Origin: Sphaeroforma arctica JP610
Taxonomy: Eukaryota
Direction of reading: 5' to 3'
Length of the DNA stretch: 58,200 nucleotides
Assembly (NCBI RefSeq): GCF_001186125.1
Contig: NW_014040194.1
Coordinates: 24,249 to 82,448 of the forward strand
Shown: in pieces, positions 12,134 to 58,200 of the stretch
Numbering within the stretch: position 1 is the first letter of the stretch
Layout: the number at the start of each line of letters is the position of its first letter
Translations under genes and position numbers: made by a program
The notes under the pieces: model-generated
Database searches by the model: none
What the model saw: only the letters and a program-made list of their open reading frames with translations
What the model was told of the DNA's origin: nothing

Positions 12134-12904
12134 ATGGAAGAGCCTGTGGTGTCTGACATTATGCTTGTCAAGGGCGTCAAGTGCCCTAAGGGATATATGC
12201 TTGTAAGTAGAATGGGCATGTCGACTATAAGAATTGTAAATGGCGTTTACTGTTGTTTATTGTTGATGCGTTGAGTTTACTATTGTTGATGCGATGTGCG
12301 AGATGCATCGCTGCAGTGTGTCTTTAGTACGGCCCCCTAAACATCTATGGAATGTGTGTCTGAGCGTCTCAGGAGGTTTCACTGGTGACTGGTGTACACG
12401 TCTACTTGATTGAGCTGCCGTAGTTAGTTATTTCAGCTAAATACTGAATGGGTCTCGAACTCACATATTCGCATCCGCATAGTCACTTTGATAGATTAAA
12501 TGATTCTTCGCGTAAATGATACAAGTCCACTTGGTGGATCGTTGTATAAGTAAAAGCACCGTTGCTTCCTCAACCCTCGGCCGCCCAAGCCTTAGTCGTG
12601 CACTATATCTATGTGAAGCAGTTGGTGTTGATTTTGTAGAGCTCAAGACCCGGTACAACATGGCAGTGTTAGCGAGTACGCGCATGTACGCATGCCTTCC
12701 CGCTTTCACAGCCGCATAAATAATGTGCATATATTTGTATATATATATTAAATATATATGTGTAAACGTATGCGTGTTGAGTGTGTGTGTCAGTGTTTGT
12801 GTGTGCGTATGAGTTTATATANNNNNNNNNNNNNNNNNNNNCACTCAAACACACTCAAACACGTGCATGCACAAACACACTTAAACTTATATATATATAT
12901 TTTA

Positions 12905-18698: not shown

Positions 18699-19319
18699 TT
18701 GTGATTATTACTGCGTGAACGGTATTAGTTGCTGAGGATCTCCTACATTCGATTACACAGTGCCGATATTGAAATGTACGTAAATAAACATGAATTTAAA
18801 AAAAATAGGTAATGAGCCAGGGCCACGCCGCCCACGGACCGTACTCCGTAGTCTGTTGTCTATTAGTCTGTACTCTATTAACTCACACCGTCTCACAGTC
18901 TCACACACACTTCACAGAATCATATTTACAATGATACTGTAGTTAACTGTAAACCTTGCTTTTTTTAGAAAACAAAAACAAACAAAAAACAAAAAACAAA
19001 AACCCCCCAAAACCATGGCCTCCTAAAATAGAGATATTGTGGGAAAACTGTTCAATTCAGGAGGCTATGGCAAAACCCCAAAACAAAATCAGTGATATTC
19101 ATTTTCAAGTCAAAACAATATTATCGATCAATGGCGATTGTGTTTGTTTTGAGCTTCAGACCTTCAGTTTGTGCCATCCATTCATCTTTTAAAATAGTGA
19201 AGTGTGTTGATAACATAATTACATAAATAACATAACAATTGCTAGCGAAGTGTGCTCATAGTTTCAACTTATACCAAACGTGCGGAACCCCTTGACTCTA
19301 CAGTAGATAACATCCCATT

Positions 19320-24307
<4,988 letters not shown>

Positions 24308-28238: not shown

Positions 28239-28435
<197 letters not shown>

Positions 28436-28492
28436 TACTCAAGTAGATACTTTACTGTTCGTGTACTTAGTGTATATTATTAGGAATTCACC

Positions 28493-34400: not shown

Positions 34401-37400
34401 GATGCGTATCAACAGACCTATCAAAACAATGCACAAATGCGCCATCAACTCCCTAGTGCGGCCGCGACTTCTGTACCAATGGGCACACGAGAACTGTAGT
34501 GTTCATCGGCGTTGATAATGTTTGTGTACATATAGTTATTCATGTTGGCGTATTGTTAGATGTATGTAGATACATGTGGGTGCATATGCGGAGTAAGCCG
34601 TAGTTCCCGTATTGAAATACTGATCGAAAGTTCCATAGTTCCGGGTATGAGTATGAATGAGTTTACTGCGATGACCATCTCTGGATAGTGCTATGGACCA
34701 CTGTCGCTTAAGCTATGTGCGATGTATGTATGTTTGCGTGTGCGTATGTGCATGTATGTACATGTATAGTTGTATGTTCGTGCATATGTATATATGTATG
34801 TATATATATGTGTGTGTGTATGTATATATATATGTGTGTGTATGTATGTATAGTATATATAGTATATATTAAACAAACAACTATGTAGTATATATATATT
34901 ATTATTATTATATATCGTATAAATATTGTATTTCTTGTTCACTTGTCGTAGATTTCATAGACTGTGATTCAGCTGCATCCAACTGCTTCGTTCTCAACGC
35001 CTTAGATCTCTTTCTATTTCATCTGTACATGTATAGTTGTATGTTCGTGCATATGTATATATATATATATGTGTGTGTGTGTGTGAATATATATAAATGT
35101 ATGTGTGTGTGTGTATGTATATATATATAAATGTATGTGTGTGTGTGTATGTATATATAGTATATATTAAACAAATATCTATGTAGTATATATAATTTTA
35201 TTTTATTATTATATATCGTATAAATATTGTATTTCTTGTTCTCTTGTCGCAGATTTCATAGACTGTGATTCAGCTGCATCCAACTGCTTCGTTCGCAACG
35301 CCTTAGATCTCTTTCTATTTCATCTCACAATGTCGCCAATGATTCTCTATCACGCAACGCCGATTCCACGCACTCATCTGGCTAGCTCCAAATTCTATTA
35401 CTACTCACACGTCCACCTATCAGCATCTCAACAACAAACCGCCATTATTCCACCGTTGCGCATACAGATTCTCATGGACTTCATTGGGGACAGCAACTCC
35501 GCCAGTGCCGCCGATGTAGTGGCCAGTGTGCGTGACTTCATCGAGTTCTTCCCTCAACTGAGAGAGAGTATCGTCGAGCGTCTGCTCGCCACCTTTGCAC
35601 ACGTCAAAGCGGCTCACATTTTTCGTGCTACCATGTGGATGCTTGGAGAATACTGCCTCAGTATTGAGGAGATCGATCAAGCTCTGGTGACGTTCCAAGA
35701 GAGTGTGGGGGCTTTGCCCATTGTGGAATCCGAGCTCAAGGCTGCGGCGGCCATTGGTGGCGAGGATGAGGATGGCGACACCCCCGATGGTGAGTATTGT
35801 CTAGTAATAAGTATGCACATATATGTGTATATTACATGCACGCTCTGATTCAATTTGCATTTGAGTACTGATCTATGTTTGTTTGTATGTATATATATAT
35901 ATATGTGCGTGTGCGTGTGTTTATACATACATACATACATACATACGTATATACATATATTTATGTAAATGACCTAGAGTTGTGCACATATGTATTGCGG
36001 CATACTTACAAATGATAAACTAACCGTAAACTCTCGTCCCCATCCTTCAGATCTGTCTGCAACCCGCAAAAACTCGCGTGAGGCTCGCGGGTCGAAGTCG
36101 CGTGTGACTGCAGACGGCACGTACGTCACACAGTCGGCATTCAGTGTCGCACCCTCTAAGGCTGAGCAGCTGATGGATACAGACATATCTCTGCGTAGCC
36201 TTATGCTCACTGGAGATTTCTTCTTGGGCACCACTCTGGCCGGGGCTTTGACCAAGCTCGCGCTGCGAAGGTACGGTATTAAAATGTGCACATATACACG
36301 TATGCGTCAAGGTGATGTAGTGTGTATATGTTTGTGTCCGTGCATATCCTATTCTCCTTGTGTGGCCTTAGGCGGTTTGATGACCCCGTCTTGGCACCAA
36401 TATTGCAGGGGCATTGGCCAAGCTCGCACTGCGAAGGTAGTGTGTGAATATGTGCACATAAAGACCTGCATGCGTCAAGTAGATATACTGTGTATGCGCA
36501 TAGCCCTCCGTAGCCTCGCGCTGTCTGGCAACATCGTCTCGGAGCCACCCTTGCCGGGGTGTTGACCAAGCTCGATTTACAGAAGCACAGTGGGGCCCAG
36601 AGTCTAAAATTAAGTGTCTGTGGGAAGTAGAAGAAATGCACACCTGTGTCTCGTATATATCGCTTTGCTCTGATGTTCTCAACCATTTAGACCGTTCAGA
36701 TCGAATACGGCAGAGGGGCGAGCCAAACGAGGTAATTTACAGTGGAATGTTGGTTCTCTCCGTCGATATACACACACAAGTATTCTGGATAGGCCTAACA
36801 TGGACTGGGGCGCATCTATTTCCCGCATGTGCACACACACACCGACTAGCATCGTGCATGCGTGCACACTCTTCACTCCTCGTGATTACCTTACATGTAC
36901 ATACACATCACATCAACCAGCGCCATGCCCTCATACACACACTCGAATCAATCACGTGGCATCCTCTTATATGCACATTCACTAGATTCGGCGCCAGCAT
37001 ACTCTCCTACACCTCATGAGATCCTCACGTGTACATACACCCCAACTGATGTCAGGCATACCCGCACTCACTAAATTCGTAAACACATGCACACCACCTC
37101 ACGCTACAGGTCCACCACAGACGACAACCAGGACAGGAATAACCACTACTCTGCCCAGTGCATGCTGATCATGGCTTCCATCATGCACCTGGGCCGAAGC
37201 GGCATCCCCACGCAGCCCATTGAGCACGACACATACGAGCGCGTGTCTGTGTGTCTGCGATGTCTGGCTGAACCTTCCGAGACAACGACCGAGGTCTTCA
37301 CAACCGAGTGCAGGCGCGCACTGAAAGAGCTGCTATCGAAGGTGTGTGGGGGAGGGTGTATTTAGATAGGGTAAGACCCCATGTGTATGCATATTTGGAA

Positions 37401-40400
37401 TAGAAATGCGTAAATCTCATTCGCATACTTTCGGGCGTGGATATTGGGTGTATGTCTTGATTCCGTGTATCTTTGTATATATCAGTGTGAATTATGTATG
37501 CGAATGGTTGCGGAAGGGATCCACATATGTAGACACTCGTATTGCTTGTGGGTGCGCGCTCGCGTACGCTGACCAAAGGGTCGTATTTCTAATTGCATGC
37601 GTGCACATGTTCATATACCTATCCAGGAAGACTTGGTATGTTTAATTGAATGTGGATAATTTCTGTACATACATCACTCCATACAATGTACCTGGCATTG
37701 TCGTTACCGCAACATACGATAGCTATGCCATCTCAACGATCTTATTTTAGTGTATGTGTATGTCTCAAGTGAAAATCAATTCACATTCGCACTCGCCCAA
37801 CCACTCTCAGGTAGCGGCAGAGAAGAAGGCTGACTCTGATGACCCGGCAGACGCTAAGGTGGTTCAAGTTGATCAGTTGATCAAGTTCACCCAGCTGGGT
37901 ATCAAAGAAGATGACATAGGTATGTACCAACATACAACCAGCGAGAAGTGAGATACGTATCTCTGATACAGCTAGTGGTCTTTTAGGACATCTGTGTAGT
38001 CTCGTTAGTGATGAGGCGACAGTGGGGTGTTCGTACTGTGCACGTGTGTGCATAACAGCAAGATTCTACAAGTGTAAGTATATGCATGGTGCAATTTTGT
38101 GCAATACTTCACTATACGCAGAATTTTGGACTGGCCGTGCCAACAACCACACACAATCATGCACGTTTACAACCTCGCCACTTTAAATCTTCGAACCTTA
38201 TGTGTTTCACTTCATACCTTTATGTAAACCCAGCTTCTTTTTTTTTGAGTGTAGCTCTACAAACGATCATGTAGTGGAGGACTACACTCGAGCTACAGGG
38301 TGAAATCGCCTGCATTCGCGACCATAAACACACGTATATATATATATGCATGTATGTATGTATGTATACACCATACCTTAGATGTTTGTGCGCTGTTTTA
38401 TTTTTTGTTGCGCTGTCATCATGCTTACACCTTGCTTCGTACCTGGGCCCTTCTCGCAGGCGATGATCTAGAGCAGGATTTGACCCTGGCTACAGGGGGT
38501 TCTGCTGTGTCTACCACTTCAGCGCTACAGAAAGTGGTACAGCTCACAGGCTTTGGCGACCCAGTGTACGCTGAGGCGTATGTAAACGTCAACCAGTACG
38601 ATATCACCCTGGACGTACTTATGGTCAATCAAACAGACGACACTCTGCAGGTGTGTGCTGTAAGACGAGCTTTATTCCAATGACTTTCTTACACGCATTT
38701 GAATTTCTAGCTTTGAGTATATATGTGTGTGTGTATGTAGATAACATGCGTTTTGTCGGAAAAAGGGTCATATACCTGCTCGGGCTACTCTTTTCTCAAT
38801 ATTCCACGATGTTTGATTGTTCCAGGGTTTGGCACTGGAGCTGGCGACAATCGGTGATCTCAAGTTGATGGAAAGGCCCGTCATTACTACTTTGGGCGCA
38901 AGAGACTTTGTGAACTTGACCGCCAGCATAAAGGTCGGTGTGCGTTTCAATACGCAAGCGGTGTTGTATGTATAAGTGTAACTGTGTGTATTGTTTGTAT
39001 GCTTTTGTCCGTTGGTTTCATTGAGAAAGTGGTGTTGTATGTATAAATGTGTATATGGTATGTATCCAAGTTTGTGTTCGTGCGTTTAAGTACGCAAGTG
39101 GTGTTTGCGCGTTTTAATACGCAAGTGGTGTTGTATGTATAAGTGTGTGTAGGGTATGTATCTCTGTGTTTACGCGTCTATGTGTCGTTGTATGTTCATG
39201 TGTACCCTATGTGCGTGTTTGTGTATGTGATCGGACTGTGTTCGAGTATGGGTAGTACTGTCGTACGATGATGTTTAAGTGTGTTTTTCTGTTCCCCCTT
39301 ATATACGTGTGCAACATCCCGACTGAAAAGTCTGTCCATAATCTCTGCGTCTGATGCTGGAAGAGAAAAAGGGACGTCGGATGAAAGTGAGGCTCTTCTC
39401 TGTTCCCTTTATCCTTTGACAAGTGTGTACTACAATTTTGGGTTCTGATATCGACGTATAGAGGTCAAATGCAGACCATCGCAGATGTGTTTGTAAGTGC
39501 GTGCCAACGAGAATTTATCGGTCAGCAAAGTGCACAATGCTACAGCAACTGGGTATGTGCTGACAACTATTTCAGCGTATGGTTTGTAATCCTGGAAACT
39601 CAGGTACAAATATAGGGTTGTGGTAAATGTTTGTCTATTCACACTCTTTGAATGTGAATAGCAATTATAATTGTATTAAATGTTGTCTGTTTTTACTCTT
39701 TGAATGTAAATAGATATCATAATCGTATCAAATGTAGTCTAGACATACTCTTAGAATGTAAATAGAAATTATAATCGTATGTATGTGTTTGTCCTACCAG
39801 ACAAGTAAAGGACATGTCGTCTACAGGTACTTTACGATCAGAAAAGAAAACGAGCTTGTGTTATAACTACCTGAGCCAGGGTGCGTGCTCGACCGAGTGT
39901 GAAAGCGCTCGTGCAAACCACGCGTGTGTTGCTGATTCGGGAACCAATATTGTTCGGGTGGACATGTGTTCTTCTCGAGTGTATCTACATCCTTTCGTAC
40001 TCGCGCGAGGATTCGTGTATTTCCCATGTCCGACGATATATGTATATATATAAATATATTGTACATGCTGGTGTATGTGCAACCACCGGGTAATAGTTGA
40101 ATAATGTATATGTCTTTGTTCGCTTGCCATTCCAGGTGAGCTCTACAGACACGGGACTGATCTTCGGCCACATCGTATACGATATCAGTGGCACATCAGA
40201 ACACGGAGTGATTGTGCTGAATGACATTTACATTGACGTCATGGATTATATTGTACCCTCTTCGTGCACGGAGACGGTATTCAGACAAATGTGGGCCGAG
40301 TTTGAGTGGGAGAATAAGGTGCGTTCCGACTTCCAGAGATTGGAGAGCGAAATTACGACTCTATGTGTTGTGTAGATGTATATTTAGATATTCATACATT

Positions 40401-43149: not shown

Positions 43150-46100
43150 AAATACGCGAGATTGTGTTGTGTGTTTTTGTTAGCCTCGTTTGATAATTCT
43201 GAGGAGTTTATGTTAAATGTGTTTTCGTGTAAACGAGACAGCCTGTCCACCGTATCATTATCTTTACCTGGCACATGCATGATGGTAAAGTGGTGGTGGA
43301 AGATCATTGCTATTTATTTCAATAGCATGAGGTGTAGGGTCTGTTGCTGGTTCATCTGTGTTGAAGCTTTGTATTCCGTTCATAACCGTGTGTCACTACC
43401 CTTTATGTATTCTAAAAAGGGGCTCGCCTCGCTTGATACTTCTGAGGAGTTTGTGTTGAATGTGTCTTCGTGTAAACGAGACAGCCTGTCCACCATATCA
43501 TTATCTTTACCTGGCACACGTATGATGGTGAAGTGGTGGTGGTATCATTGCTATATATTTCAATAGCATGAGGTGTAGGGTCTGTTGCTGGCTCATCTGT
43601 GTTAAAGCTTTGTAATCCGTTCATAACATTGTGTCACTACCCTCTATGTATTCTAAAAGTGTTTCAGATTGTAAACCAGTGCGAGTAGTTATTTCGTGTT
43701 TGTACCAAAACACTGTTGTGTAGAGTTTAGTCCTTTTGAGAAATATAGTATGTTTCTTCGGACCCCATCAATGACTTCGATACAAACATCTTTTGTGTCA
43801 TAGTCACTAGCGTCATTCATGATTTGAAACGGGGCTCCGGCTATCGGATACGCTAGTGCGGCAGAGCACTCTGTGGCATTCTTTAGCTCTTCCCACTTCC
43901 TCTTCAGTTCCGCGGTTCATACTAGACATGTTCTAGTTGATCTTTCCCTTCATAAGATGTCAGAAATGCTCCGTATTGTTGGCAAACTGTGGAATATAGT
44001 CTTGCATATAGTTGGCAAGTCTCACGGCTCTGTGCAGTTGACCAGTCCATCATTCGTTTCTGTTACTCAGTAACAGTCCTTGAGTTGTAACTTGCACCCC
44101 AGTAAGTTAACGGTCTTGGCTGCGAAAGCGCACTTCAAGTGGTTCAAACGGAAGTTCGCCTGGTTCAGTCTTTTGATCAAAGTGGATGACTATGTCATCC
44201 ACTTACGCTTGTGTCTCTTTTATGCCTATGAGCAAATATGTTTTGATTCGTTAGAATTGTGCTGTTAGTGAATATAAACCAAACGGTGTTGGTTTAAACT
44301 AGTAATGAGCCCCTCTCCACGAGAATGTGAAGAGATAACAAATAAGCAGTGATTAAAGCCCCGTTAAATCTAGTTTGGAAACGAATTAGGCTCCTTCTAG
44401 GTTGCGGAGTACCTCTTTTACTTTTGCTAATACAAACTTATCTTGTTCATATTGATAGTTGATCTCTCGTGACTCCAGACATATCAGTCCAGAAACAAGC
44501 CTATTTTGGTCCTGTTCAGTCTGTAGAGATTAGTGGCAAGTTCCCTTGTGTTGGTGTTGCTCGGTTATATATGTGTCCATCTTTAACTCGCTTTTGTACG
44601 TTTTCGTCTTTTGGTGTTTGTATTTGTGTGGCATAAAGTTTACTCTTGCATCGCTTATCTGTTTAATGTTGATTTCGTTGCTCGGTATTCCCACCGTAAT
44701 CCTTGGCAATGTACATCTGAAGGGTTAATGTATTTGTTATAATAGGTCTGCGAGACACTCTTTGAACCCTTTCTGTACCCTTTCTGTTTGTCTTCTGGAT
44801 CTTTCTCATGTGGTCTCAGTAGTGATTTCCATTTGGCGTCATTGGCATTAGCAGATTTATTTCCCTTGTTCTATGTGTATCTAAGTGTGCATACTTGTCA
44901 GGGAGATCGAGTACCTCAAAACAGTGAGCAGCTTTTTCTTTATCATAAATTATTTCGCATACTTTTGTTGTGCCTGTGCGTTGTACTCAGATATATGTTC
45001 GTGCAATATAATCCGATCTCGCTGTGGCTGATAGGAATATTTCAATTCCTACATATATGAGCGTTGTGCTCCTGGATCTACCAAGGTATTGTAAGGATTG
45101 CCATTGATTTATATGCCTATATGGAATCGTTGGTCTCGTGGTTAAGAAGCAGTGAAGTCGGTGTGTAGGTCAACGTCATTTACATTTACTAACAACGTTT
45201 CATCATCTGTGTCTGCATTCACTATGTCCACCATATTATCATAATAACTTCCGCCCACCACTGCTTTGAAAAATTTATCATCCGTCTCTCCAAACTTAAT
45301 ACCATGGGTGATGACTATTTGTCCCACATTGGTATTCTCTTGATTGTTCTGTGCCGCACGTTTACGTTCCAAAGCTTTCATTCGATTGCTTTCTCCTTTC
45401 CGAGGGCTCACTTTCAGTTAGCTTCTAACGCTTGTCAAGTTCGTTCCTGTTGATATGCAATATACAAATGCTCAGCTTGCATCTGCACGTTCAAACTTAT
45501 ATCATGTAGGTCATCGAATCAGACTGAATTTCGACGCAGAGTTGAGTCAATATTAGCAATTGTAATCCTCTACACGAGTGCACTCTTTTAACAAATCTGG
45601 GCTGGCATCAATAAACTTACATCATGTAGGTCATCGAATCAGACTGGATTTCGACGCAGAGTTGAGTCAATATTAGCAATTGTAATCATCTACACGAGTG
45701 CACTCTTTTAACAAATCTGGGCTGGCATCAATTTGACCTCATTAACGTCAATTTGCTTCAACAGCTTTTGTATTAGAGATAAGTGCTGTTCTAGTGACAT
45801 GCTCTTTTCTAAGAACAAGTCTTCGGTCAGTGTTGCAAACGCAATAGCATCCTAACAAGATTCACCCATATTGAAGATCCTGCCTTTTGGTAACTTCGGA
45901 AGCTTGTACAACTTCAGTAGCTTGTACATCACATGCATATCGGTCTAGTCACCCGTGCGCAATCTGATTAACCCCAACTCGCTAACAAACCCGCTAATTG
46001 CGATGCATTCATCGTGGTCTTCTTTATCACAGTCAATGGCCATTCATCCACTACTGGCATAGAGTAATCTTAGTGCCTGAGTATGAAATGTACTTTTGAG

Positions 46101-46559: not shown

Positions 46560-46626
46560 TGCAGCATCTAGGGACCAGATTATCAAGAAGCCAATACAAA
46601 CCCGAAAACCACAGAATCGTCAAATT
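46560..46626. repeat. Terminal fragment of the LTR-like repeat (inverted relative to the 50968 and 54900 copies)
   Basis: The reverse complement matches 55032-55098 closely ('aatttga.gattctgtggtt...gataatctggt.cctagatgct') and the end of the 50968-51274 copy. Confidence 0.8.
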
Positions 46627-47370
46627 CACGAGTTTTGGGTCCGATTTTCCACGATATAGCCTGAGAATCGATCACACGACGACAAATCGAAATGCAAAAG
46701 GAATAATGAATATTAAATACGTCGGCAAATAAAAGAGTACTCGCCACATACTGATAACTACAAAACAAGGGAACAATTAGTATCCAACATTACACACGCT
46801 CAATAAAACAAACGGATGAATGAGAGCAGCATCCATAAACAAGAGATTGAATATCAAATTTTAGCATGAAAATCAGAAAGCGCTAAAACAGGTATTGATG
46901 CACATGAATAATAGCAATGGGTACAAAGAATACACACAAACACTAACATCAACACAGTTTGGTGCAGGACTGAAAAATACACACAGGTGATGTCAATAAG
47001 ACCGAACATCACAGGCGAAGACAATACTATCACGTCAGCACACGTGTCAAATCAAGGCTAAGACCTCACATGAGAAAAAAGTCTAGCTAAGACCACATAT
47101 GGCAAAATAATACTATTATCACATATGACAAATAATACTATTATCACACATGACGAAATATGTCGTGCTAACTTCATACGTGACGAAATAAGTTTGACCA
47201 ATAAACAACAGAAACTCATTTCCAATCACAAAAGGAATACAACAAGCTACCAATCAACACATATCTGTAAACTCTTCACACGAAAGTGCAGCAAAACGTA
47301 CTAGCAACAAAGGTAAGTAAGATGAATCAGATATTTATTTTTACACAAGTTACCAGCAAAGACAAGGGGG

Positions 47371-49750
47371 ATGAAGCATTTATTCAGAACGAATATAACA
47401 CAAGTCGTTACTAATACCATGCAACACATACACCACCACAGACAATTTAAGATGCCGACAGCAACCAGAGCAGGGGTGTATGGCGGAGACGGCGATGACA
47501 CCAACATGCATGGCATGGACAACAGACCAGCAGGTGAGCCAACCCCAGGTCGTAGCTCAAGTCTACAAACATCTGAGGGGGTACCAATTCAGGCGTCAGC
47601 AATGCAATTAGAAATAGACAAGAGCATTTGTCAAGGCAACTACTTCCTGGCCAGTAGGTTCATCTCCAAGCTAGAAGCAACAGCACCTGTAGCTATCGCA
47701 AGTCTACACAAGATGAGAGTAGGTATTTATGATCAGCAACACGAGCGTCGCATACCTCTGGTAAACACAGAGCTCAGAAAGAGATACGATCAATGTATCA
47801 ATGCGTGTGGTGATGACGATGAGGATGAAGTAATTCAAATTAGTCAAAGCATTAACGAGCTAGAAATCATGCGTTCACGCTTAGGTTACAAGGTTAAGGC
47901 ACCAGCATTATCTAAACTACTAAAGACCTCCAAATTTTCGAAATTATTGAGAGATAGTTCTTTCAAAATGAAATTTGTGAAGACAATATAAAGTTTACTA
48001 CGCAGTGTTGAGACCAGTTTCTAGCTAAGTCCATGCCACTATGTCAGTATCCAGCACTAGTGAGATATCTATTAGATTTCACTGATGCAACTGACAATAC
48101 CAAGGGGGTCCTCAATGAAATACGTGACTCGGAGACGTAGAGCACAAAGAATTACTCTGATCCAGAGCAATTCAATAGAATCACTATTGGTAGACTCAGG
48201 CATCACCCAGTAGACTATCTATCAGAGAAGTTTCTCAATGACATAGAGAACAAGGCACTGAATGTGAAAGTGTGTACAGAGCGTATGTATAGGACAATGC
48301 AGGTGTTAGAGGAGCGATACAGAAATACGGACAAGGAGCCAATACATGTGCAACTCCTCAAGAAATTTTTGTACCACACAAGTACATTCCACAAACGAAT
48401 GAAGATGTAAAATTGGTGGTTTACAGATGGTCACATATACAAATGAATATCACCAGCAACGGTGAATTTACCATTGTTGTCCACAGGTGGACATGACCAA
48501 ACAGGTCTCCTCAAGAAAGTGAGAAGATGCTTAGACTTACGCGAGATCAATTACCAATATGAGCAAGGAAGTATTGCACAACCTTAAAGAAGCACAATTT
48601 TTCTCCAAACTAGATCTCACGGGGAAGGGGGGGGGTTCAACCTCTTCCTAGTTGATGAAGCTAGCAGGCACTTCTTCGCATTCTCGTAGAGATGAGTGTA
48701 ATACTCATTCAAGTCAGCGCCATTCGGTCTGCACTCACTCCAAGCACAATTTCAGAGAGTCATGGGAAACTTGCTCATATACATTAAAGGAGTGCAAGTG
48801 TACGTGGATGACATAGTTATTACAAGCCTCGCAGAAGAAAAACATCACAAAATAATTAAACGATTGAACGGAGTAAACTCCCGCCGACTCAACCACGACA
48901 AATGTGCTTTTGCGGTCAAAGTGGTCGCATTCTAGGAGTGAAAGACGCGAAACAAGGACTCGAAACTGATCCTGAAAAACAGAAAAGAATGATGGACTGG
49001 CCACTACTCAGAACAAAAAGAGATCTGCACAGAGCGGTGGGACTCGCAAACTACATGCGTGACTATGTCCTCAACTTTCCCAACACAACTAAGCACTTCT
49101 GCAACCTAATAAAAGGAAAATGAACCAAAACAGATCTATGTTATGGACACCGGATGGGAAGAACTCAAAGAAGCCATCGTATGTTCGGCGACACTATCAT
49201 TCCCTGTTGATGGGGTACCGTTTGAGATCGTGAACAGCGCTAGTGACTATGGCATAGAAAGATGTTTATTTCAGGTCATAGATGGAGTCAGAAGAGACAT
49301 TCTCTACTTCTCTAAATTCTTGAACCCAGCCCAACAACGCTATGGCACAAACACTAAAGTGCTACTAGTCCTGGTATACAGTTTGGAACATTTCTCTGAA
49401 TACATCAAAGAAGGGGACGTAACACTTTGAACAGATCACAAACTGATCACGCAAATGAACAGTCAACAGACGTTACACCCACTGCTAGCCAAATGAATAG
49501 CAAAAACAATCCACCACCATTTCTCCATCATACATGTCCCGGGCAAGGATAACCAGATGGCAAATATATTGTCACGTCTACACGACGGTATTTTTAATAC
49601 CAAAATGTCGAATGTATTAAAAAAGACGCGAACAAAACAACACACAACAGCCAAGAATACACCACCTTGGAAATAAACATGCCAATAATAATATCAGTTA
49701 TAGACTGGAAGAAGCTAAAAAAAGGCTTGGCATATTCACAGCAGATTGCG
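47371..49750 (+). mobile_element. Decayed Ty3/Gypsy copy B: gag-like ORF (47371-47991, probable start MPTATRAG at 47452), protease deleted, RT, RNase H, start of MTase domain
   Basis: RT 'KVRRCLDLREIN', 'SAPFGLH', intact YVDD codons at 48801-48812. RH 'NSASDYGI..YFSKFLNPAQQRYGTNTKVLL..HFSIIHVPGKDNQMANILSRL'. Ends in 'ISVIDW..EAKKRLGIFTAD', homologous to the start of the MTase domain in copies C and E. Confidence 0.85.
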
Positions 49751-49884
49751 ATGTTCCTCTGTGAGACATGCAATGACTAGTACACTTGCACTCTACTGTC
49801 CATGAGCAAGTTTGCTATGACTCCCTGGAATTGTGCTGTGAGTGAGTGCAGGTCGAATGGCGCTAATTTGAATGATTATTGCGC

Positions 49885-50635
49885 TCCTCTTCATGAGTCT
49901 GCTAACTTCATCTACTAGGAAGTGGTGGAACCCCCCCCCCCCCCTCCCCTTGAGATCTAGTTTCGAGAACAATTGTGCTCCTTTAAGGTTGTGCAATACT
50001 TTCTCACTTGTATTGGTAATTGATCTCGCTTAAGTCTAAGCATCTTCTTACCTTCTTGAGGATACCTGTTTGGTCATGTCCACCTGTGATAACAATGGTA
50101 TGCTCACAGTTGTTGGTGTTGTTCATTTGTATATATGACCATCTGTAAGCCAACAGTTCCCATTTTCATCCATTTTATGGAAGGTACGTAAGTGGTACTG
50201 AGTTTCCTTTGGCATGCCTCATTTGTCTGACATTGATCTCACAGTGATATTGGAACCTGGCAAGTTGCAGTGTACGGCAGGAGGTATATTTGCACTGGTT
50301 TCTAAGTTGTTTGCAAGTGATTCTCTGAACCCTACTTGTTCGTGCTCTGGGTCTTTCTCATGTGGAGTGAATAGTGATTCCCATTTTGCATCTGTTGGAA
50401 TAAGTGTATTTTTTATTCCTGCTGTGTATCCAACTATGTATGGTAGAATGTACATACCTAGCAGTATTGGTGCCTTCTTGTCTGGTAATTTCAATATTTC
50501 GATGCACTGAGAGGTTTTCCTACCTCCATAATTAATGTCACATACTTGTGTTGGCACTATTCTTTGTATTCGTGCATCTGTTTGTGGTTGAACCCTAAAA
50601 CCCCTCTTTGTAGATGACACACGCATCCAGGCTCC
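49885..50635 (-). mobile_element. Decayed Ty3/Gypsy fragment D (protease C-terminal half, linker, RT N-terminus)
   Basis: ORFs 50219..50626(-) ('APILLGMYIL') and 49793..49996(-) ('LKGAQLFSKLDL..FHHFLVDE'). Inverted homolog of 48400-48690 and of 52270-52980. Confidence 0.82.
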
Positions 50636-50967: not shown

Positions 50968-51274
50968 TGTAGAGTGTAGAGAGTAGCTGAAGGATACGAG
51001 CGAAACGATACAATGGACCTCTTCTCAAGTACGGTTATATCAGCTAGGAAAAGACCTTAGTCTGAGAGAACCGAACTGAGTCTATATTTGTGTTTTCTAA
51101 TTCACAAGACTCAGGCTTTTTACTTGAGTGTTTCTCTCACTCGCGGAGTCCCGGTATATCTTACCGGTTCTACCGCTAATACTGCTGATGACTCTAATGT
51201 CAGGAATTTATTAATCCTAATTCCAAAACTCAATATTTGACCATCCTTTTATTATCTGGTCCCTAGATGCTACA
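50968..51274. repeat. ~307-bp LTR-like repeat with TG...CA ends and a 5-bp terminal inverted repeat (TGTAG...CTACA)
   Basis: Begins 'tgtagagtgtagagagtagctg' and ends 'tctggtccctagatgctaca'. Homologous pieces at 54900-55098, 56216-56250 and (inverted) 46560-46626. No target-site duplication seen. Confidence 0.75.
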
Positions 51275-54200
51275 CAACGACTTCCATGACAGTCACTTGA
51301 ACGTTGAATACAAGCAGCACGATTGCGTCACACAATGCTTGAGCTGGAGAAACAGTTCAAGAGCACTGAGAGAGAGTTCATCAATTGGTAACTTCTCAAA
51401 ACATTTTGTTCCCTCTCACTAGTCATGTATAGACAGCAAGCTGAGACTGACAAGATAATAAAGGCTCAAACGAAGCCTGATAGTAGTAGTGGACACATAT
51501 CTGACATACAGAGAAGGTATTCCATGAACTCACGGAAGATCCATCAGACAAGCAACGATAACACAGGCTAATCGCAATCGTGAACGCATAAGAGTGAGAA
51601 CAAAAGAGTGAGAACTGCATTCATCCCAGACCAACGAGTCAATCGTCCAAGACTTGGCATATCCACAGGGAGTTCACTCAGAGGGGTGAGTCCACCCAGA
51701 GAGGCTGGACCACAAGTAGGACAAGGCAGAGGACGTCCCATCGGACAGGGCACTAACAACCCAACACCGCGAGGTCTAAGACTATGCCCACACTGTGGTA
51801 CAGGCCCTTCGCCACATGCGTTCAGCAAGTGCCCCAATGAGGAAGAAAGCAACCCCCAATGAGGAAGAAAGCAACCGCCAGAAGACAATAGCGCGTGCAG
51901 CGCAGCAATCTCAACCCATCCATCATGTGGACTAGTTAACCATTACTAATGGCAACAAGGTCCAAGAGATGGACGAAGAAATTTGACAGGCTTGGTGGGC
52001 GGAAGCTATAATGGTAAACATGGTAGACATTGTGAAGGCACACACTAATGAAGAAACGTTGTTAATAAATGCAAATGATATTGCTTACACACCTTGTTCT
52101 TTAATTCCTAACACACGAGACCAACGATTGCACATAGACATACAAATCAATGGCACTACATACAACGCACTAGTTGATTCAGGTGCACTACGCTTGTGCA
52201 TGGATCGCAGTGTAGGGACTGAACTAAATTTATCAGTCAAACACAACCTGGCTACATACAGCTAGCCAAATCTGACGCACGAGTACAACGCACAGGCTCA
52301 ACAGAAGTATGTGATGTAAACTACAGCGGTATAAAATCATCAAACTGCTCTGAGGTACTCGACCTCTCTAACAAGTAGTCACCAATACTTTTAGGTATAG
52401 ATATTTTACCATACTTGGGTATACATCTAGCGGTGATAATCAATCCACTCATACCAACAGGTACCAAACGGGAATCACTTCTTATATCACATGAAGAAGA
52501 CACTGGACACGAACAAGAAGGGTTCAGAGAATCACTATCAGACGTATACCAAAACGGCATGATCCCACTTGACGTACACTGTGATTTACAGGGTCAGTAG
52601 TGGAGATCAACCGAGCCAAGAAGTCAAAACCAAAATATCCGACACGCTAAAGTGAACCTTGTTCCTCACATATACATACCAAAAACAGATTACAATGTTC
52701 AAAATTGTGTCAAATAGGGTCACATATACAAAAGAACAGCACCGACACAAGTCATACTACCACTATTGTCAACAGGTGAATTTGAACCAACAGGCTTACT
52801 AAAGAAAGTCCGCATATGTTTGGACTTAAGAGAAGTTAATTATCAACATGAACAAGACAAATTCGTATCGTCGAAAATGAAATAAGTACTTCACAACTTA
52901 CAAGGTGCACAATTCTTTTCCAAATTGGACTTAACAGAAGGCTTCCACCATTTTTGTGTACACGAAAATAGCCAACACTACTTCTCTTTTTCATGGAGAA
53001 GAGCACAATACTCATTTAAGTCAGCCCCATTTGGACTGCACTCGCTAACAGCACAATCCAAAGAGTCATGGACAATCTACTCATTGACATTAAAGGCGTA
53101 CAAGTATATGTATATGACATAGCCATTGCCAGCCTCACAGAAGAGGAACACAGAGAGACAGCACGAGAAGTCATCAAAAGACTCAACGCGACCAACTTCA
53201 GGTAAAACCACAACAAATGTGCGTTTGCAGTCAAGACAGTCAATAAATTAGGCGTCGAAATTACAACAAAGGGGCTCAAAAGAGAACCCGAACAAAAAAA
53301 CCGCATGATTGGCTGGTCTTTACTAAAGTCGGATTAGCAAACTACATGAGGGACCACATACCCCAGTTTGCACACGCAACGAAACACTTCCACAATCTCA
53401 TGCTAGGAAAATTGAGCCAGAACATAGCCAATATTTGGAAACCTGAACTAATTAAAAAAGGGGAAGAACTCAAAGATGCCATCGCATGTTTAGCAACATC
53501 GGCATATCCAATTGATGGAGTACCATTCCAAATCATGAATGACGCAAGTGGTTATGTCATAGTAGGCTGCATGTTTCAAATCATAGACGGGGTCAGACGA
53601 GATATACTTATTTCTCAAAAGGCATAAACCCCGCACAATAAAGATATGGGACAATTACGAAAGAGATACTAGCGCTGGTATACAGTCAGGAACACTACTT
53701 GGAATACATCCAAGGAGACGATATAACATTGTGGACAGATCACGAGGCACTATGCCAGATGAATAAGCAGCAAACGCTGCATCCCATGTTAGCGAAGTGG
53801 ATAGCAAAACATTTCATCACTACTTCTCAATCATACACGTGCCTGGAAAAGACAACCAATTTGCCGACATACTATCATGATTGTACGAAGATACCTTCAA
53901 CATCAAAACATCAAATGTGTTGAATGAAGCCAACGAGCATACACACAATGGTCAACAATACACTGACCTTGAAACAAACATGCCCATACTAGTATCTGCC
54001 ATAGACTGGCAACTACATCCACGATTCTACAAAGAGGCAGAACGCAGGTTTGTAAAATTCGTCATCGATTTATTAGTAGCAGCATAGTTCTACACTAAAG
54101 AACAGAATGCATTACTACAAAAATGGGCAGAGGAAATAAACGCATTGGCGTATTCCCCTGGGAGCTAATCTCAGACGTTCTTGACAAAGTCATAGAGGAA

Positions 54201-54899
54201 GCCACGAGAATCACAATATGCGTACCTTACTACCCAAATACAACGTGGTTCCCCAAGTTCCTGTCACTGTTAGAACAAGACCCGATGATAGTCGAAAACA
54301 CGAACAACACGTTTCTGAACGAGGGCACGACAGTCTGTGGCAAAACACCATTGGTGGGCACACTAGTAGCAAAGATAGGCACAAAGTCACCATGCTTTGA
54401 CCAAAAACTAGCACATCCAGCTATAAAGATCGTGTCGGTACAAACCGATGATGAGTCGGCAGAGCTAGACACAGTCACATTTGAGGATAGAGTTACCCTG
54501 ATATCTCAATACCACTCTGTGGGCCACTACACTGTCGAAGAAACAGTGAATAAACTTCAACTAAATGGCCACACATGGTCACGCCAGAAAGAACATGTAA
54601 ACCAATACATTGAAGGCTGTGTACCATGTCTCAAGTACAAATCCACAAAAAGGGCTTCCACCTTTACAACGAATAACAGCCGCATTTCCGGGCGACAAAA
54701 TACAAGTGAACACCATCGGTCCCTTGATCAACTCGAATAGAGACAGCACATGCGTCCTAGTTTTCCTCGATGTGCACTCATCATATGCCATACATAGATC
54801 AATGATGGAAAAATCAGCTGCGACAGTCGCACGAACACTATTCCAATCATGTTTGAACAAAGCTTTCCACAAATCATACAAACGTATCAAGGCCCAGAA
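51275..54899 (+). mobile_element. Near-complete but decayed Ty3/Gypsy copy C: gag (Zn knuckle), protease, RT, RNase H, Dam-like MTase, H2C2 zinc finger, truncated rve integrase
   Basis: CPHCGTGPSPHAFSKC knuckle (51785-51832); protease 'YNALVDSGA'; RT 'LDLTEGFHHF..FSWRRAQYSFKSAPFGLH'; RH 'FQIMNDASGY..LWTDHEAL'; MTase 54004-54380; 'YHSVGH...YIEGCVPC'; integrase 'PLQRITAAFPGDKIQVNTIGP..LDVHSSYAI'. Multiple frameshifts and stops. Confidence 0.9.
54004..54380 (+). pseudogene. DIRS/Dam-like DNA N6-adenine methyltransferase domain in copy C (disrupted)
   Basis: 'DWQLHPRFYKEAERRFVKFVIDLL..' then '..PWELISDVLDKVIEEATRITICVPYYPNTTWFPKFLSLL'. One stop/deletion and a frameshift at the catalytic motif. 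Confidence 0.8.
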
Positions 54900-55098
54900 T
54901 GAGATAACCGAATTGAGTATTTATTTTAATTTCCTAATTCACTAGACTCATGTTTTTACTTGAGTGTTTCTCTCACACGCGGGGTCCCGGTTCAGCTTAC
55001 CGGTTCTACCGCCAATATTTCTGAAGACACTAATTTGATGATTCTGTGGTTATAGGTTTTGGATTGGCTTTTTGATAATCTGGTTCCTAGATGCTAAA
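54900..55098. repeat. 5'-truncated copy of the LTR-like repeat, joined directly to the broken integrase of copy C
   Basis: 'tgagataaccgaattgagt...ttacttgagtgtttctctcac.cgcgg.gtcccggt...cttaccggttctaccgc' matches 51063-51200; ends 'ctagatgctaaa'. Confidence 0.82.
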
Positions 55099-56215
55099 TT
55101 AACGCCGTGAAGCTGTTAATATATCTGAAGTATCAGAGTTCAATTTAAAAGTGAAGTATAAGAAGGCAGTTAAATAATAAGATTAGGTATGCCTCGTGAA
55201 AACATTAATACTCTGGGGGATTAAAAGGCTGAGGCATTGCATATACATATTGTAAATCCTCCCAGTACTAATGTCGCCGAAGAGATTTTATTGATCTTTT
55301 CGTTGTTTGTCTAGACGAAACTATAACTAATTTTCGTTGGGCCAATTCGAAGGACTCGCAAAATCCTATCTTCAAACGATTGTATTGTATTGATCATAAT
55401 AACTATCATCGGCAATCTGGTTGGCTGAACGGAGGATAAATTAGGAAACTGTAATAGTCCCTAGAAAACTATGTTCGGTTGAGCCATCTCGCTACCGAAG
55501 TATTCAGATATATATATTTGAAGAATTTAATAGGTCTTTAAATAGGTCTACTACAAGTATCGTCTTTGGCATTATAATGGGCCAATTCATGGGCCGAATC
55601 TAAATATCTGATTTGTAAAATGGAAAAGATATTAATTTAATAATCTTGGAGAAAGACAAGAGCAAATCCAGTGTTGTGGACCAGAACCGGGATTACGAAT
55701 GTACGAGAGAGATCATCAATGACAACATCAGTTTGGGTGCCGATTCAGAAGCAAGGTCTACGACAGGATCAGAATCTGATACGGATATGTTTCTGACCGA
55801 TGGTAGTATCTCAATAGAGGATTTGTATGAATACGACAATGACCAGAACATACAGAGAAGCACGAGTTGATCTGAGCTCAATGAAACTTCAGGGTTGCAG
55901 GATTGCCCCCCCCGGTAAGAACTCGTGAGCAAACTTACTCACAGGTTCCAAAGCTCTAAAATTGAGAGAGTGGAGATGCTATCACGTATATTTCCCTATG
56001 ACAAGAGATGAAAGATCAACATTCTTCGAGGGTTTTCACCAGGATGACATCGCCGACTCCAATAGCATTCAGCTTCTACAGGATTTGATTACGCCTGTGA
56101 ATCCTGGAAGTCTCAGAACAAAGCATAACACGAGGAGACAAATACAAGCAAGAATATGAAAGGTATTTTATATTCATTTATTCGGTTTTTAAGTATGTAT
56201 GTCGATTGATTATTT

Positions 56216-56250
56216 TGTAGAGTATAAAGAGTAGCTGCAAAAATACGAAA
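56216..56250. repeat. Terminal ~35 bp of the LTR-like repeat, abutting the integrase of copy E
   Basis: 'tgtagagtataaagagtagctgcaaaaatacga' versus 'tgtagagtgtagagagtagctgaaggatacga' at 50968. Confidence 0.7.
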
Positions 56251-58200
56251 TTTTCCGTAACAGTGGTACAAGGTCTCTATGTAATCGTTCGTTCGCGCCT
56301 AAGATTTTAGGTTGGTACGGCGGAGAGACTAGGTGTTGTGCCTAAGACTTTAGGTTGGTACGGCCGAGAGACTAGGTGTTGTGTCGGCGCTTCTTCAACG
56401 ACTTTTGAAAGTATATCGTTAACATATTCAGTGCCTTGGCCAGTCTGTATGGTTTGTGGGAACCCAATTTCACACATGATTGATGCCAGTGTGCGTGCTA
56501 TAGTAGCCGCTGATTTGTCCATTGTTGGTAGTAGTATGGCATACGATGAGTGCACATCTAGCGATACTAGCACATATACGTGTCCTCTATTTTAGTCCGA
56601 TTGGTGGCCCAATGGTGTCTACTTGGACTCTGTCGCCTGGAAATGCGGCTGTTATTGATTGTAAGGGATGGAATTCATTTTTGAGGGGGTTTTTTTTGAG
56701 ACATGGTACGCATCCTTCGATGAATTTGTGTACATGTTGGATCTGAGGCAAATCATGTCCATCTGTTTGCAATTTGCTTACCGATTCCTCAGGGGTGTTG
56801 TGTCCATGTGGTATTGCTCGATGATGTACATGTCTCGTATTCTGTTGCCTGCGGTGCATCTCCAGATTGCAGTAGTTGTGATGCTGCAACGTGTATGGCA
56901 GGTTGTTCCCGCGTTGAGTCAAAGTATGGAGACTTCACTCCGATCTTTGCGACTAATGTGACACCCCATGGGGTCTTGTCACAAGCCTTCTTGCTTTCTT
57001 TGAGGAAAGTATTATTTGTGTTCCCCACTAGCATCGGGTCTTCTTCTAGTAAAGACAAGAATTTTGGAAACCACGTTGCATTGGGGTAGTATGGTACACA
57101 TATCGTGATGCTGGTTGCTTCTTCAATGACTTTGTCAAGGACATCAGGTATGAGTTCCCATGGTGGTTTCGCCCATACATTCACTTCCTGCGCCCACTTT
57201 TTTTGTAGCACATTATGTTCTTTGGTGTAGTATTTATCTGTGTGTGCATTGTGTGCCGATGCAAACAGATCCACTGTGAACTTCCCAAACCGTCTTTCAG
57301 CTTCTTGGTAGAATCTGGGGTTTAACATCAAGTCTATGGCTGATATGGTCATGGGCATGTTTGTTTCCAAGGTGGTGTACTCTTGGCTATTTTGTGTTGT
57401 CTCATTCGCCTTTTGTATTACCTTTGAAGTTTTAGTATTAAAAGTGTCTTCATGTAGACGCGACAACATGTCTGCCATCTGGTTATCCTTGCCTGGGACA
57501 TGTATGAGGGAGAAGTGGTGGTGGAACGTTTTTATAACGTCTGTTGACTGTTTATTTGCGTGAGCGCTTTGTGATCTGTCCACAGTGTTATGTCCCCCCC
57601 TTGATGTATTCAGAGAAATGTTCCAAGCTGTATACCAGTGCTAGTAGCTCTTTAGTATTTGTGCCATAACGTTGTTGTGCTGGATTCAAACCTTTTGAGA
57701 AATAGAGAATGTTTCTTCTAACTCTATCGATGACTTGAAATAAACATCCTCCTATACCATAGTCACTAGCATCATTCATGATTTGAAACGGTACCCTATC
57801 GACAGGGTATGCTAGTACCGCTGAACAGGCGATGGCTTCTTTGAGTTCTTCCCAATTCTTTAGTTCCGGAGTCCATAACATGGATATGTTCTTGTTCATT
57901 TTTCCTTTCATTAGGTTCCGAAAGTGTTTCGATGTGTGGGCAAAGTTGCGGACATGGTCGCGCATGTAATTTGCTAGTCCCACTGCTTTGTGCAGATCTC
58001 TTTTTGTTCTGGGTATTGGCCAGTCCATCATTCTTTTCTGTTTTTCAGGGTCTGCTTTGAGTCACTGTATGGTGACTTTCACCCCGAGAATGTTGACCAC
58101 TTTGACCACGAAGGCACACTTGTTGTGATTGAGTCGGAAGTTTGCTCTATTCAGTCGATTGATTACTTCACGAACTGGCTTGCGGTGTTTCTTTTCTATA
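56250..58200 (-). mobile_element. Ty3/Gypsy copy E (runs off the right edge): RT end, RNase H, Dam-like MTase, H2C2, rve integrase
   Basis: ORF 57588..58031: RH 'FQIMNDASDYGIGGCLFQ..YFSKGLNPAQQRYGTNTKELLALV'. ORF 56789..57583: 'HVPGKDNQMADMLSRL' plus MTase. ORF 56587..56922: 'PHGH..KFIEGCVPC..FPGDRVQVDTIGP'. ORF 56307..56573: 'GFPQTIQTGQGTEYVN..SRPYQPK', continuing as 'GANERLHRDL' after a 43-bp duplication (56298/56341). Confidence 0.92.
56939..57334 (-). CDS. DIRS/Dam-like DNA N6-adenine methyltransferase domain within pol of copy E (frame open, motif IV reads KPPW)
   Basis: DLMLNPRFYQEAERRFGKFTVDLFASAHNAHTDKYYTKEHNVLQKKWAQEVNVWAKPPWELIPDVLDKVIEEATSITICVPYYPNATWFPKFLSLL matches the Dam/DIRS-MT pattern DW.L.P..F.....FG...vDLFAs..N....yy.....l...W.....w.NPP..li..vl.K.......l.vP.wp...Wf. 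Confidence 0.82.

What the first reader, a model, noticed from the sequence alone, without database searches (positions are those of the whole stretch)
56250..58031. Ty3/Gypsy retrotransposon with a DNA N6-adenine methyltransferase between RNase H and a DDE integrase (PR-RT-RH-MTase-IN)
Seen: in copy E the Ty3-type RNase H (DASDYGIG...ELLALV...HVPGKDNQMADMLSR) runs in frame into a ~130-aa domain with 'DLFAS..N' and '(N/K)PPW...VP...WFP' motifs. An H2C2 zinc finger and an rve core follow (VQVD...QT(G)QGTEY...GANER). Established: this Dam-like MTase is the domain found after RNase H in DIRS1-group retrotransposons, which integrate with a tyrosine recombinase; canonical Ty3/Gypsy pol goes directly from RH to IN. 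No tyrosine recombinase is visible here, while an aspartic protease (copies A and C) and a DDE integrase are present. Inference: a hybrid lineage of integrase-using LTR elements captured a 6mA writer, possibly to mark its own cDNA or insertions (6mA marks active chromatin in ciliates, chlorophytes and early-diverging fungi). I do not know a named family with this architecture, but novelty must be checked against TE databases.
Basis: partly seen in the sequence, partly recalled or inferred. Interest (0 to 1): 0.92.

Follow-up and report, generated by a model that had tools for sequence, protein, structure and literature searches.

The report
Dead ichthyosporean DAM-LTR retrotransposon copy
This is a broken copy of a Gypsy-type jumping gene that carries a phage-like adenine-methyltransferase domain between its RNase H and integrase, a design already described in a 2026 preprint; the one addition is that its intact relatives end in a likely worn-down chromodomain, which the preprint says this lineage lacks.

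Summary
The domain order is real. Pfam finds RNase H (7e-24), Dam PF05869 (3e-14) and the rve integrase core (2e-10) in that order. Two intact 1,288-aa relatives carry PR-RT-RH-Dam-IN in one ORF. RT-RH neighbours are integrase-bearing Ty3/Gypsy. Correction: copy E is not in frame. It has several frameshifts and stops, NPPW reads KPPW, an integrase Asp is Gly, and it is cut short.

It is not novel. bioRxiv 10.64898/2026.05.21.726589 names an 'Ichthyosporean DAM-LTR lineage' including Sphaeroforma arctica, source of the only named hit (85%). It already proposes the 6mA self-marking model; its E. coli activity test was negative. This scan also found the same kind of element on other DNA (20 notes, at least 3 genomes).

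One addition: the preprint says the lineage lacks chromodomains, yet 3 of 3 near-full-length relatives end in a divergent, cage-less chromodomain-like tail. Their closest RT relatives are chromodomain-bearing elements without Dam. That tail is not in the window. Verdict: already known; interest 0.2.

The parts
57594..58196 (-). Copy E: RT C-terminal part/thumb and RNase H N-part (DASD, ELLALV); one internal stop; RT core lies beyond the window end
   Evidence: tblastn to P0003 384-585, 84%; Pfam RT_RNaseH_2 7.2e-24
57535..57603 (-). Copy E: RNase H middle (WTDHKAL) in a second frame
   Evidence: tblastn to P0003 583-605, 83%
57335..57538 (-). Copy E: RNase H C-terminus (HVPGKDNQMADMLSR) and linker, third frame, in frame with Dam
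   Evidence: tblastn to P0003 613-843, 69% over the whole segment
56921..57334 (-). Copy E: Dam-like N6-adenine methyltransferase domain (DLFA motif; catalytic motif reads KPPW instead of NPPW)
   Evidence: Pfam Dam 3.3e-14; TIGR01712 3.5e-12; PHROG 111 9.9e-15; codon read-out
56605..56836 (-). Copy E: integrase zinc-finger region and first catalytic Asp (VQVDTIG), frameshifted
   Evidence: tblastn to P0003 857-924, 59%; no Pfam hit on this piece
56249..56597 (-). Copy E: rve integrase core; second catalytic Asp replaced by Gly (QTGQGTEY); 43-nt tandem duplication at 56297-56382; element breaks off after GANER, so residues 1029-1288 of the intact Pol (including the chromodomain-like tail) are absent
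   Evidence: Pfam rve 2e-10; tblastn; repeat D13
52050..54899 (+). Copy C: degenerate sister copy showing PR-RT-RH-Dam-IN in one stretch; Dam motifs broken by a deletion, a stop and a frameshift; ends inside rve
   Evidence: tblastn chain to P0003 19-983; Pfam protease and H2C2
48368..49711 (+). Copy B: RT-RH fragment of the same family ending at the start of Dam; 80% identical in DNA to copy E
   Evidence: tblastn to P0003 223-680; blastn 48850-49709 vs 58168-57328, 79.9%
49780..50611 (-). Inverted PR-RT fragment of the same family abutting copy B
   Evidence: tblastn to P0003 83-373
43152..45237 (-). Copy A: degenerate PR-RT-RH with a tandemly duplicated RNase H end; no Dam match
   Evidence: tblastn to P0003 3-663; repeats D1, D6

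Best explanation
This is a dead, frameshifted copy of a multi-copy Ty3/Gypsy retrotransposon family whose intact relatives encode protease, RT, RNase H, a Dam-family adenine-methyltransferase domain and a DDE integrase in one reading frame, most likely the already described ichthyosporean DAM-LTR lineage. SHOWN: domain order, single ORF and intact NPPW in relatives, Ty3/Gypsy-type RT-RH, decay of the window copies. INFERRED: an ancestor that was a chromodomain-bearing Gypsy element gained the Dam module between RNase H and integrase (from a DIRS element according to the preprint; not tested here). In an active copy Pol would be processed and packaged. The Dam domain would put 6mA on the element's own cDNA or RNA-DNA intermediate, the integrase would insert it, and host AMT1 would maintain the mark, keeping new insertions in transcription-permissive chromatin. 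I put identity with the described lineage at about 0.93, catalytic self-methylation at about 0.5, and the relatives' tail being a true chromodomain fold at about 0.85.
For: Pfam order in the window. P0001 and P0003 (1,288 aa) and P0004 (995 aa, starts inside RT) carry RVT_1-RH-Dam-H2C2-rve in one ORF, P0001 and P0003 also the protease. NPPW is present in 4 of 4 Dam hits. The best PDB hit of P0003 is Ty3 Gag-Pol, 7.4e-60. Of 117 listed non-Dam RT-RH relatives (120 of 124 hits listed), 109 carry rve and/or H2C2; 0 list Dam or a phage integrase. 0 of 117 match the Dam domain by phmmer (best E 0.42). Dam is as conserved as RT between P0003 and P0004 (86/148 vs 86/146), while the linker after it is 4/23. 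At the K codon of copy E, the whole laid contig depth in 4 of 4 runs gives Asn. The only named Dam hit is S. arctica SARC_00333, 85%. Host beta-COP is nearest to animal and Capsaspora proteins at 55-61% among named hits, consistent with a unicellular holozoan. The preprint names this lineage and reports more 6mA-marked and more expressed DAM-LTR insertions than other LTRs in S. arctica and A. whisleri.
Against: No enzyme activity is shown. The preprint's heterologous DAM-LTR and DIRS DAMs did not raise 6mA in dam- E. coli, and it reports that eukaryotic DAMs align only to part of the prokaryotic domain. The 6mA enrichment is correlative and could be written by host AMT1 alone. Between the close relatives P0003 and P0001, Dam (78%) is less conserved than RT, RH and rve (92-95%). 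LTRs and target-site duplications could not be shown, as no genome is held. The host is inferred, not given, and I could not place these sequences in the preprint's tree. The preprint says the ichthyosporean lineage lacks chromodomains, which does not fit P0001, P0003 and P0004.
Confidence: 0.9

Rival explanations
1. Same element, but the Dam-like domain is not the 6mA writer: it works as a nucleic-acid- or SAM-binding module, or on RNA, and the 6mA on these insertions comes from host AMT1 acting on transcribed loci.
For: Negative E. coli assay and only partial alignment to prokaryotic DAM in the preprint. Unchecked notes of this scan report DAM-LTR lineages elsewhere that keep the domain but lose the catalytic motif (leads only).
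Against: NPPW is kept in 4 of 4 database relatives, and Asn stands in all laid contigs of 4 of 4 runs at that codon. The preprint's enrichment persists across length and age thresholds.
Confidence: 0.4
2. The arrangement is a chance chimera: a DIRS fragment nested in or recombined with a Gypsy copy, or an assembly artefact.
For: The locus is a pile of at least five broken, partly inverted fragments.
Against: Two diverged window copies (C and E, 69% DNA identity) and three independent database proteins (59-85% identical to each other) share the same collinear order, the latter in one ORF.
Confidence: 0.01
3. The element is a DIRS-group retrotransposon whose tyrosine recombinase lies outside the window, and the integrase belongs to a neighbour.
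For: RH followed by Dam is the DIRS arrangement (Dam-like domains in DIRS: PMC5890265 passages). My trees held no DIRS sequence.
Against: A protease and a DDE integrase are in the same ORF as RT-RH-Dam. Pfam RT_RNaseH_2 and Ty3 are the best matches. RT-RH nests with support 100 among chromodomain- and rve-bearing Pol proteins.
Confidence: 0.01

Closest known systems
Ichthyosporean DAM-LTR lineage (Fernandez-Moreno et al., bioRxiv 10.64898/2026.05.21.726589; Pirum gemmata, Abeoforma whisleri, Sphaeroforma arctica)
   Same: Ty3/Gypsy Pol with a PF05869 Dam domain and NPP motif; nearest named sequence is from S. arctica; the same proposed 6mA self-marking role.
   Different: The preprint's text says this lineage 'lacks chromodomains'; 3 of 3 near-full-length relatives here end in a divergent chromodomain-like tail. 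Its text does not give the RH-Dam-IN position for this lineage (its Fig. 2B and supplements were not visible to me). The window copies are dead.
Chlorophyta DAM-chromovirus-like and Chloro-Ochrophyta DAM-LTR clades (same preprint)
   Same: DAM inside a Ty3/Gypsy element; the first has a chromodomain, the second has DAM between RT and integrase.
   Different: Independent captures according to the preprint; algal hosts.
DIRS retrotransposons with Dam-like methyltransferase
   Same: Dam-like N6A methylase domain in a retrotransposon (PMC5890265 passages); the proposed donor of the domain.
   Different: DIRS integrate by a tyrosine recombinase in a separate ORF; this element has an aspartic protease and a DDE integrase in Pol.
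Chromoviruses with group II chromodomains
   Same: C-terminal chromodomain after the integrase that lacks the first and third cage aromatics (definition from PMC3350952 passages); chromoviruses are known from holozoan protists (PMC4007536 passages).
   Different: Group II was reported only from plant Gypsy elements in that 2012 paper; common descent with them was not tested here, and they carry no Dam.
Phage/bacterial Dam-family methyltransferases (PF05869, TIGR01712, PHROG 111)
   Same: Same profile family; all 29 metagenome loci recovered match only the Dam region at 26-44%.
   Different: No RT, RNase H or integrase match in any of those 29 loci.

Membership tests
Ty3/Gypsy LTR retrotransposon | Pol order PR-RT-RH-IN with a DDE integrase after RNase H | tested here: met
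   One ORF in P0001 and P0003; collinear in window copy C
Ty3/Gypsy LTR retrotransposon | RT-RH related to Ty3/Gypsy | tested here: met
   Best PDB hit Ty3 Gag-Pol 7.4e-60; 109 of 117 non-Dam relatives carry rve/H2C2; trees without DIRS outgroup
Ty3/Gypsy LTR retrotransposon | Direct LTRs, PBS/PPT and target-site duplication | tested here: inconclusive
   A ~170-200-nt repeat precedes the gag-like regions of copies A and C and recurs at 54900-55100, but no complete LTR pair or TSD was shown; no genome held
DAM-LTR (Fernandez-Moreno 2026) | PF05869 Dam domain in a non-DIRS LTR-type Pol | tested here: met
   Dam E 3.3e-14 in the window and 2e-12 to 4e-15 in the three Pol relatives
DAM-LTR (Fernandez-Moreno 2026) | Asn-Pro-Pro catalytic triplet | tested here: met
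   Met for the family (4 of 4 relatives; all laid contig depth in 4 of 4 runs); not met in window copy E (KPPW) or copy C (broken)
DAM-LTR (Fernandez-Moreno 2026) | 6mA enrichment on insertions; methyltransferase activity | not testable with these tools
   The preprint reports enrichment in S. arctica and a negative E. coli assay
Ichthyosporean DAM-LTR lineage | Ichthyosporean host and membership of the preprint's DAM clade | tested here: inconclusive
   Only named hit is S. arctica SARC_00333, 85% over 88% of the query; host beta-COP holozoan-like; preprint sequences not available
Ichthyosporean DAM-LTR lineage | Lacks a chromodomain (descriptive trait in the preprint) | tested here: not met
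   Chromodomain-like tail in 3 of 3 near-full-length relatives. It is weak enough to be missed at the preprint's 1e-5 threshold (whole-protein E 0.015, 0.0042, none). The region is deleted in the window copies, so it is untestable there.
DIRS retrotransposon | Tyrosine recombinase; no protease or DDE integrase | tested here: not met
   Protease and rve are in Pol; no phage-integrase hit in P0001, P0003 or P0004. Flanks of intact copies were not seen.
Chromovirus | C-terminal chromodomain after integrase | tested here: met
   In relatives only: profile of 3 tails vs PDB, 21 of 21 hits at E<=1 are chromodomain proteins, best 4.4e-05; excised P0004 tail passes the Pfam Chromo cut-off (25.6 vs 25.1), P0001 22.5 and P0003 15.8 do not; AF2 three strands plus helix, pLDDT 80.9; 38 of 38 listed Foldseek rows are chromodomains, prob 0.96-1.0, none at E<=0.001
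Chromovirus | RT clade membership | tested here: inconclusive
   The Dam trio groups with P0125, P0126 (clear Chromo) and P0159 (weak Chromo, E 0.0026) at support 100; the link to the main Tf2-like chromo clade is weak (0.655 FastTree; 92 SH-aLRT in an unresolved node that also holds 4 rows without Chromo)
Classical (group I) chromodomain | Three-residue aromatic cage | tested here: not met
   Only the Trp is kept; first position is Ser or His and the third is absent in 3 of 3 tails aligned to CBX1/Swi6 (cage definition)

The most novel reading that the evidence does not exclude
The ichthyosporean DAM-LTRs are not chromodomain-less conventional Gypsy elements but Dam-capturing chromoviruses. 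They kept a cage-less (group II-like) chromodomain, a type reported only from plants in the one review I read, and pair it with a 6mA writer.
Probability: 0.3. Interest if true: 0.45.

Novelty: already known. Interest (0 to 1): 0.2.

Why it matters
If the Dam domain is active, retrotransposons would be writing an activating host mark (6mA) on their own DNA, the mirror image of 5mC silencing. That idea, and this lineage, are already in a 2026 preprint, and activity is still unproven. This locus adds only dead copies. The useful by-products are (i) naturally intact single-ORF family members (P0001, P0003) suitable for the missing assay and (ii) evidence that the lineage carries an overlooked cage-less chromodomain and probably descends from a chromodomain-bearing Gypsy clade. 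That would correct one descriptive sentence of the preprint and make a reader-plus-writer hypothesis testable in a cultivable protist.

Tried and rejected
No whole genome is held, so copy number, LTR pairs and TSDs could not be examined.

The single-sequence AF2 model of the window's Dam domain was poor (pLDDT 60.5; the other four models 33-37). It gave no Foldseek match at E<=0.001 and best VIA-align Z 3.5: inconclusive, no evidence for or against the fold.

The deep HMMER search for DIRS-type Dam relatives never ran (queue full), nor did the ESM Atlas look-up of the tail. There is therefore no Dam tree, and the DIRS origin is taken from the preprint.

No listed holder among 24 sequencing runs is on record as RNA, so nothing is said on expression. 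Summed contig depth is not a copy number; I use it only to say that many similar copies exist (1,522 pieces laid from X1, 1,192 of them at 90-99% identity). No laid contig shows the window's own letter at the K codon, so I cannot tell a copy-specific mutation from an assembly error there.

The integrase C-terminus and chromo tail have no match in the window (best E 0.41). No tRNA genes in the window. No earlier scan note was found by sequence.

Rejected: chance chimera, DIRS identity, intact in-frame Pol at this locus, and novelty of the architecture.

Full report
OBSERVATION. The window is a roughly 42% GC eukaryotic contig. Its first 40 kb hold host genes in several pieces (DnaJ/CSL, phosphoacetylglucosamine mutase, beta-COP), and its last 15 kb are a pile of broken retrotransposon copies. 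At 56250-58200 on the minus strand, Pfam finds RNase H (RT_RNaseH_2, 7.2e-24), Dam PF05869 (3.3e-14, 53.3 bits against a cut-off of 28.1) and the rve integrase core (2e-10), in that order. The Dam call is backed by TIGR01712 (3.5e-12, below that model's cut-off) and PHROG 111 (9.9e-15).

Against an intact relative, copy E falls into six tblastn segments with frame changes between all neighbours. It has stops in the RT thumb, after Dam and in the integrase, KPPW for NPPW, Gly for the second integrase Asp and a 43-nt duplication. It breaks off at residue 1028 of 1288. Public contigs reproduce two of the broken stretches exactly (one of these runs may be the window's source).

WHAT IT IS. No genome is held, so I searched proteins. 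The Dam domain gave 4 hits among 149 candidates of 273-2000 aa: P0001 and P0003 (1,288 aa, 76-77%), P0004 (995 aa, 56%) and P0002, named Sphaeroforma arctica SARC_00333 (85%). P0001 and P0003 read protease-RT-RNase H-Dam-H2C2-rve in one ORF; P0004 is the same from RT onward. All four keep NPPW. Five window fragments belong to this family, and copy C shows the full order in one stretch. This rules out a chance chimera.

RT-RH is Ty3/Gypsy-type. The best solved relative is Ty3 Gag-Pol (7.4e-60). Of the 117 non-Dam relatives listed (120 of 124 hits shown), 109 carry rve and/or H2C2, and none lists Dam or a phage integrase. None matches the Dam domain by phmmer. The family has many copies in public runs. 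At the codon where copy E has Lys, every laid contig in 4 of 4 runs gives Asn, so the family keeps its catalytic motif; whether the Lys is a real mutation or an assembly error is open. The host is not given. Its beta-COP is nearest to animal and Capsaspora proteins among named hits, which together with P0002 points to a Sphaeroforma-like ichthyosporean (inference).

LITERATURE. A search for Gypsy + retrotransposon + adenine methyltransferase + DIRS + integrase gave 2 papers. I read the whole main text of bioRxiv 10.64898/2026.05.21.726589. Its figures are not held and its supplements were not seen; Fig. 2B and Supplementary Fig. 2 may bear on the domain order and on the chromodomain point. [quoted passage not shown] It finds more 6mA-marked and more expressed DAM-LTR insertions than other LTRs in S. 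arctica and A. whisleri, and proposes that DAM methylates the RNA-DNA intermediate and host AMT1 maintains the mark. Its test in dam- E. coli was negative. Of PMC5890265, PMC3350952 and PMC4007536 I saw passages only. This scan's notes hold 20 findings with the same key words in at least 3 other genomes (8 shown); I had read the preprint before opening them.

ONE ADDITION. The preprint says the ichthyosporean lineage 'lacks chromodomains'. The three near-full-length relatives end in a chromodomain-like tail.
- As whole proteins they score below threshold: Chromo E 0.015 (P0001), 0.0042 (P0004), none (P0003). This would be missed at the preprint's 1e-5 hmmsearch threshold.
- Excised, the P0004 tail passes Pfam's cut-off (25.6 vs 25.1) and the other two do not (22.5, 15.8).
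- A profile of the three tails hits 21 PDB sequences at E<=1, all chromodomain proteins, best CBX1 4.4e-05.
- AF2 on those three rows gives three strands and a C-terminal helix at pLDDT 80.9. All 38 listed Foldseek rows are chromodomains (prob 0.96-1.0, TM 0.52-0.67, but none at E<=0.001).
- Only the cage Trp is kept, the pattern of group II retrotransposon chromodomains.
- In RT-RH trees (115 of 120 rows, FastTree; 44 of those 115, IQ-TREE quick) the Dam trio groups at full support with P0125, P0126 and P0159. These lack Dam and carry Chromo: two clearly, one weakly. The link to the main chromovirus clade is weakly supported, and the trees had no DIRS outgroup.

Limits of this addition: the tail is not in the window, the three records are unnamed, and I cannot show they are the preprint's sequences. 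A search for ichthyosporea + retrotransposon + chromodomain gave 4 papers; I read the preprint and passages of one other, and saw the other two as listings only, so absence from print is weakly tested.

MECHANISM. Shown: architecture, conservation of Dam on a par with RT over the P0003-P0004 distance (58% vs 59%; flanking linker 17%), motif retention in the family and decay at this locus. Against a core-enzyme role, Dam is less conserved than RT, RH and rve between the two close relatives (78% vs 92-95%). Inferred from the general Ty3/Gypsy cycle (own knowledge) and the preprint: Pol is packaged and processed, Dam would methylate adenines of the element's cDNA or hybrid, the integrase inserts it, and AMT1 would maintain the mark (about 0.5). 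The main rival is a non-catalytic or RNA-directed domain with host-written 6mA (about 0.4). My structural test of Dam was inconclusive, and the DIRS origin was not tested.

VERDICT. Real, correctly read in kind, wrongly read as in-frame, and already described, most likely down to the lineage. Interest 0.2, most of it for the overlooked chromodomain-like tail in the relatives.

Noticed in passing
P0001 1205-1269, P0003 1206-1270, P0004 926-990 (not in the window): Divergent cage-less chromodomain-like tail after the integrase, followed by a basic Arg/Lys run; at odds with the preprint's statement that this lineage lacks chromodomains.
   Followed up: yes
window 46563-46700 (-), 51063-51232 (+), 54900-55100 (+): Three copies (85-89% alike over the aligned parts) of a ~170-200-nt repeat containing TGGT(C/T)CCTAGATG. 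It precedes the gag-like regions of copies A and C and interrupts copy C inside its integrase; probably a 5' LTR end or leader of the family, and the third copy may start another insertion.
   Followed up: partly
window 56297-56382: Tandem 43-nt duplication (95% alike) inside the integrase core of copy E.
   Followed up: partly
window 43183-43658 and 45493-45732: Tandem duplications in copy A: a ~242-nt unit repeating the RNase H end, and a 120-nt unit (98% alike) in the gag-like region.
   Followed up: no
window 48371-48803 vs 50198-49780: An inverted PR-RT fragment (81.5% alike) sits head-on against copy B; the 43-58 kb block is a nest of at least five fragments of one family on both strands.
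   Followed up: partly
window 51770-51850 (+): Cys/His-rich stretch (CPHC...H...C, read by eye) upstream of copy C's protease, perhaps a Gag zinc knuckle; not scanned in that frame.
   Followed up: no
window 55700-55950: A stretch between copies C and E that several divergent contigs cover in public runs, so probably another repeat; unidentified.
   Followed up: no
window 47326-47991 (+): 221-aa open frame upstream of copy B with no convincing Pfam hit (best REC102, E 0.004, below cut-off); possibly Gag-like.
   Followed up: partly
window 4493-10800, 18081-18704, 23801-24307, 28484-38700: Host genes: Hsp90/TRAP1-like exons (named from recalled motifs; the one piece scanned had no Pfam hit), DnaJ plus CSL zinc finger (Dph4-like, name recalled), phosphoacetylglucosamine mutase, and beta-COP.
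   Followed up: partly
P0166, P0173 (RT relatives): Two chromodomain-bearing Gypsy Pol proteins also list PF00856 (SET domain, name recalled): another chromatin-writer domain inside a retrotransposon Pol.
   Followed up: no
P0155 and P0185 (RT relatives): P0155 is a Gypsy Pol listing several ankyrin-repeat families (names recalled from accessions PF00023, PF12796); P0185 lists PF21743, not looked up.
   Followed up: no
window 12822-12841, 19929-19948, 28272-28291: Three 20-N scaffold gaps; none lies in the retrotransposon block.
   Followed up: no
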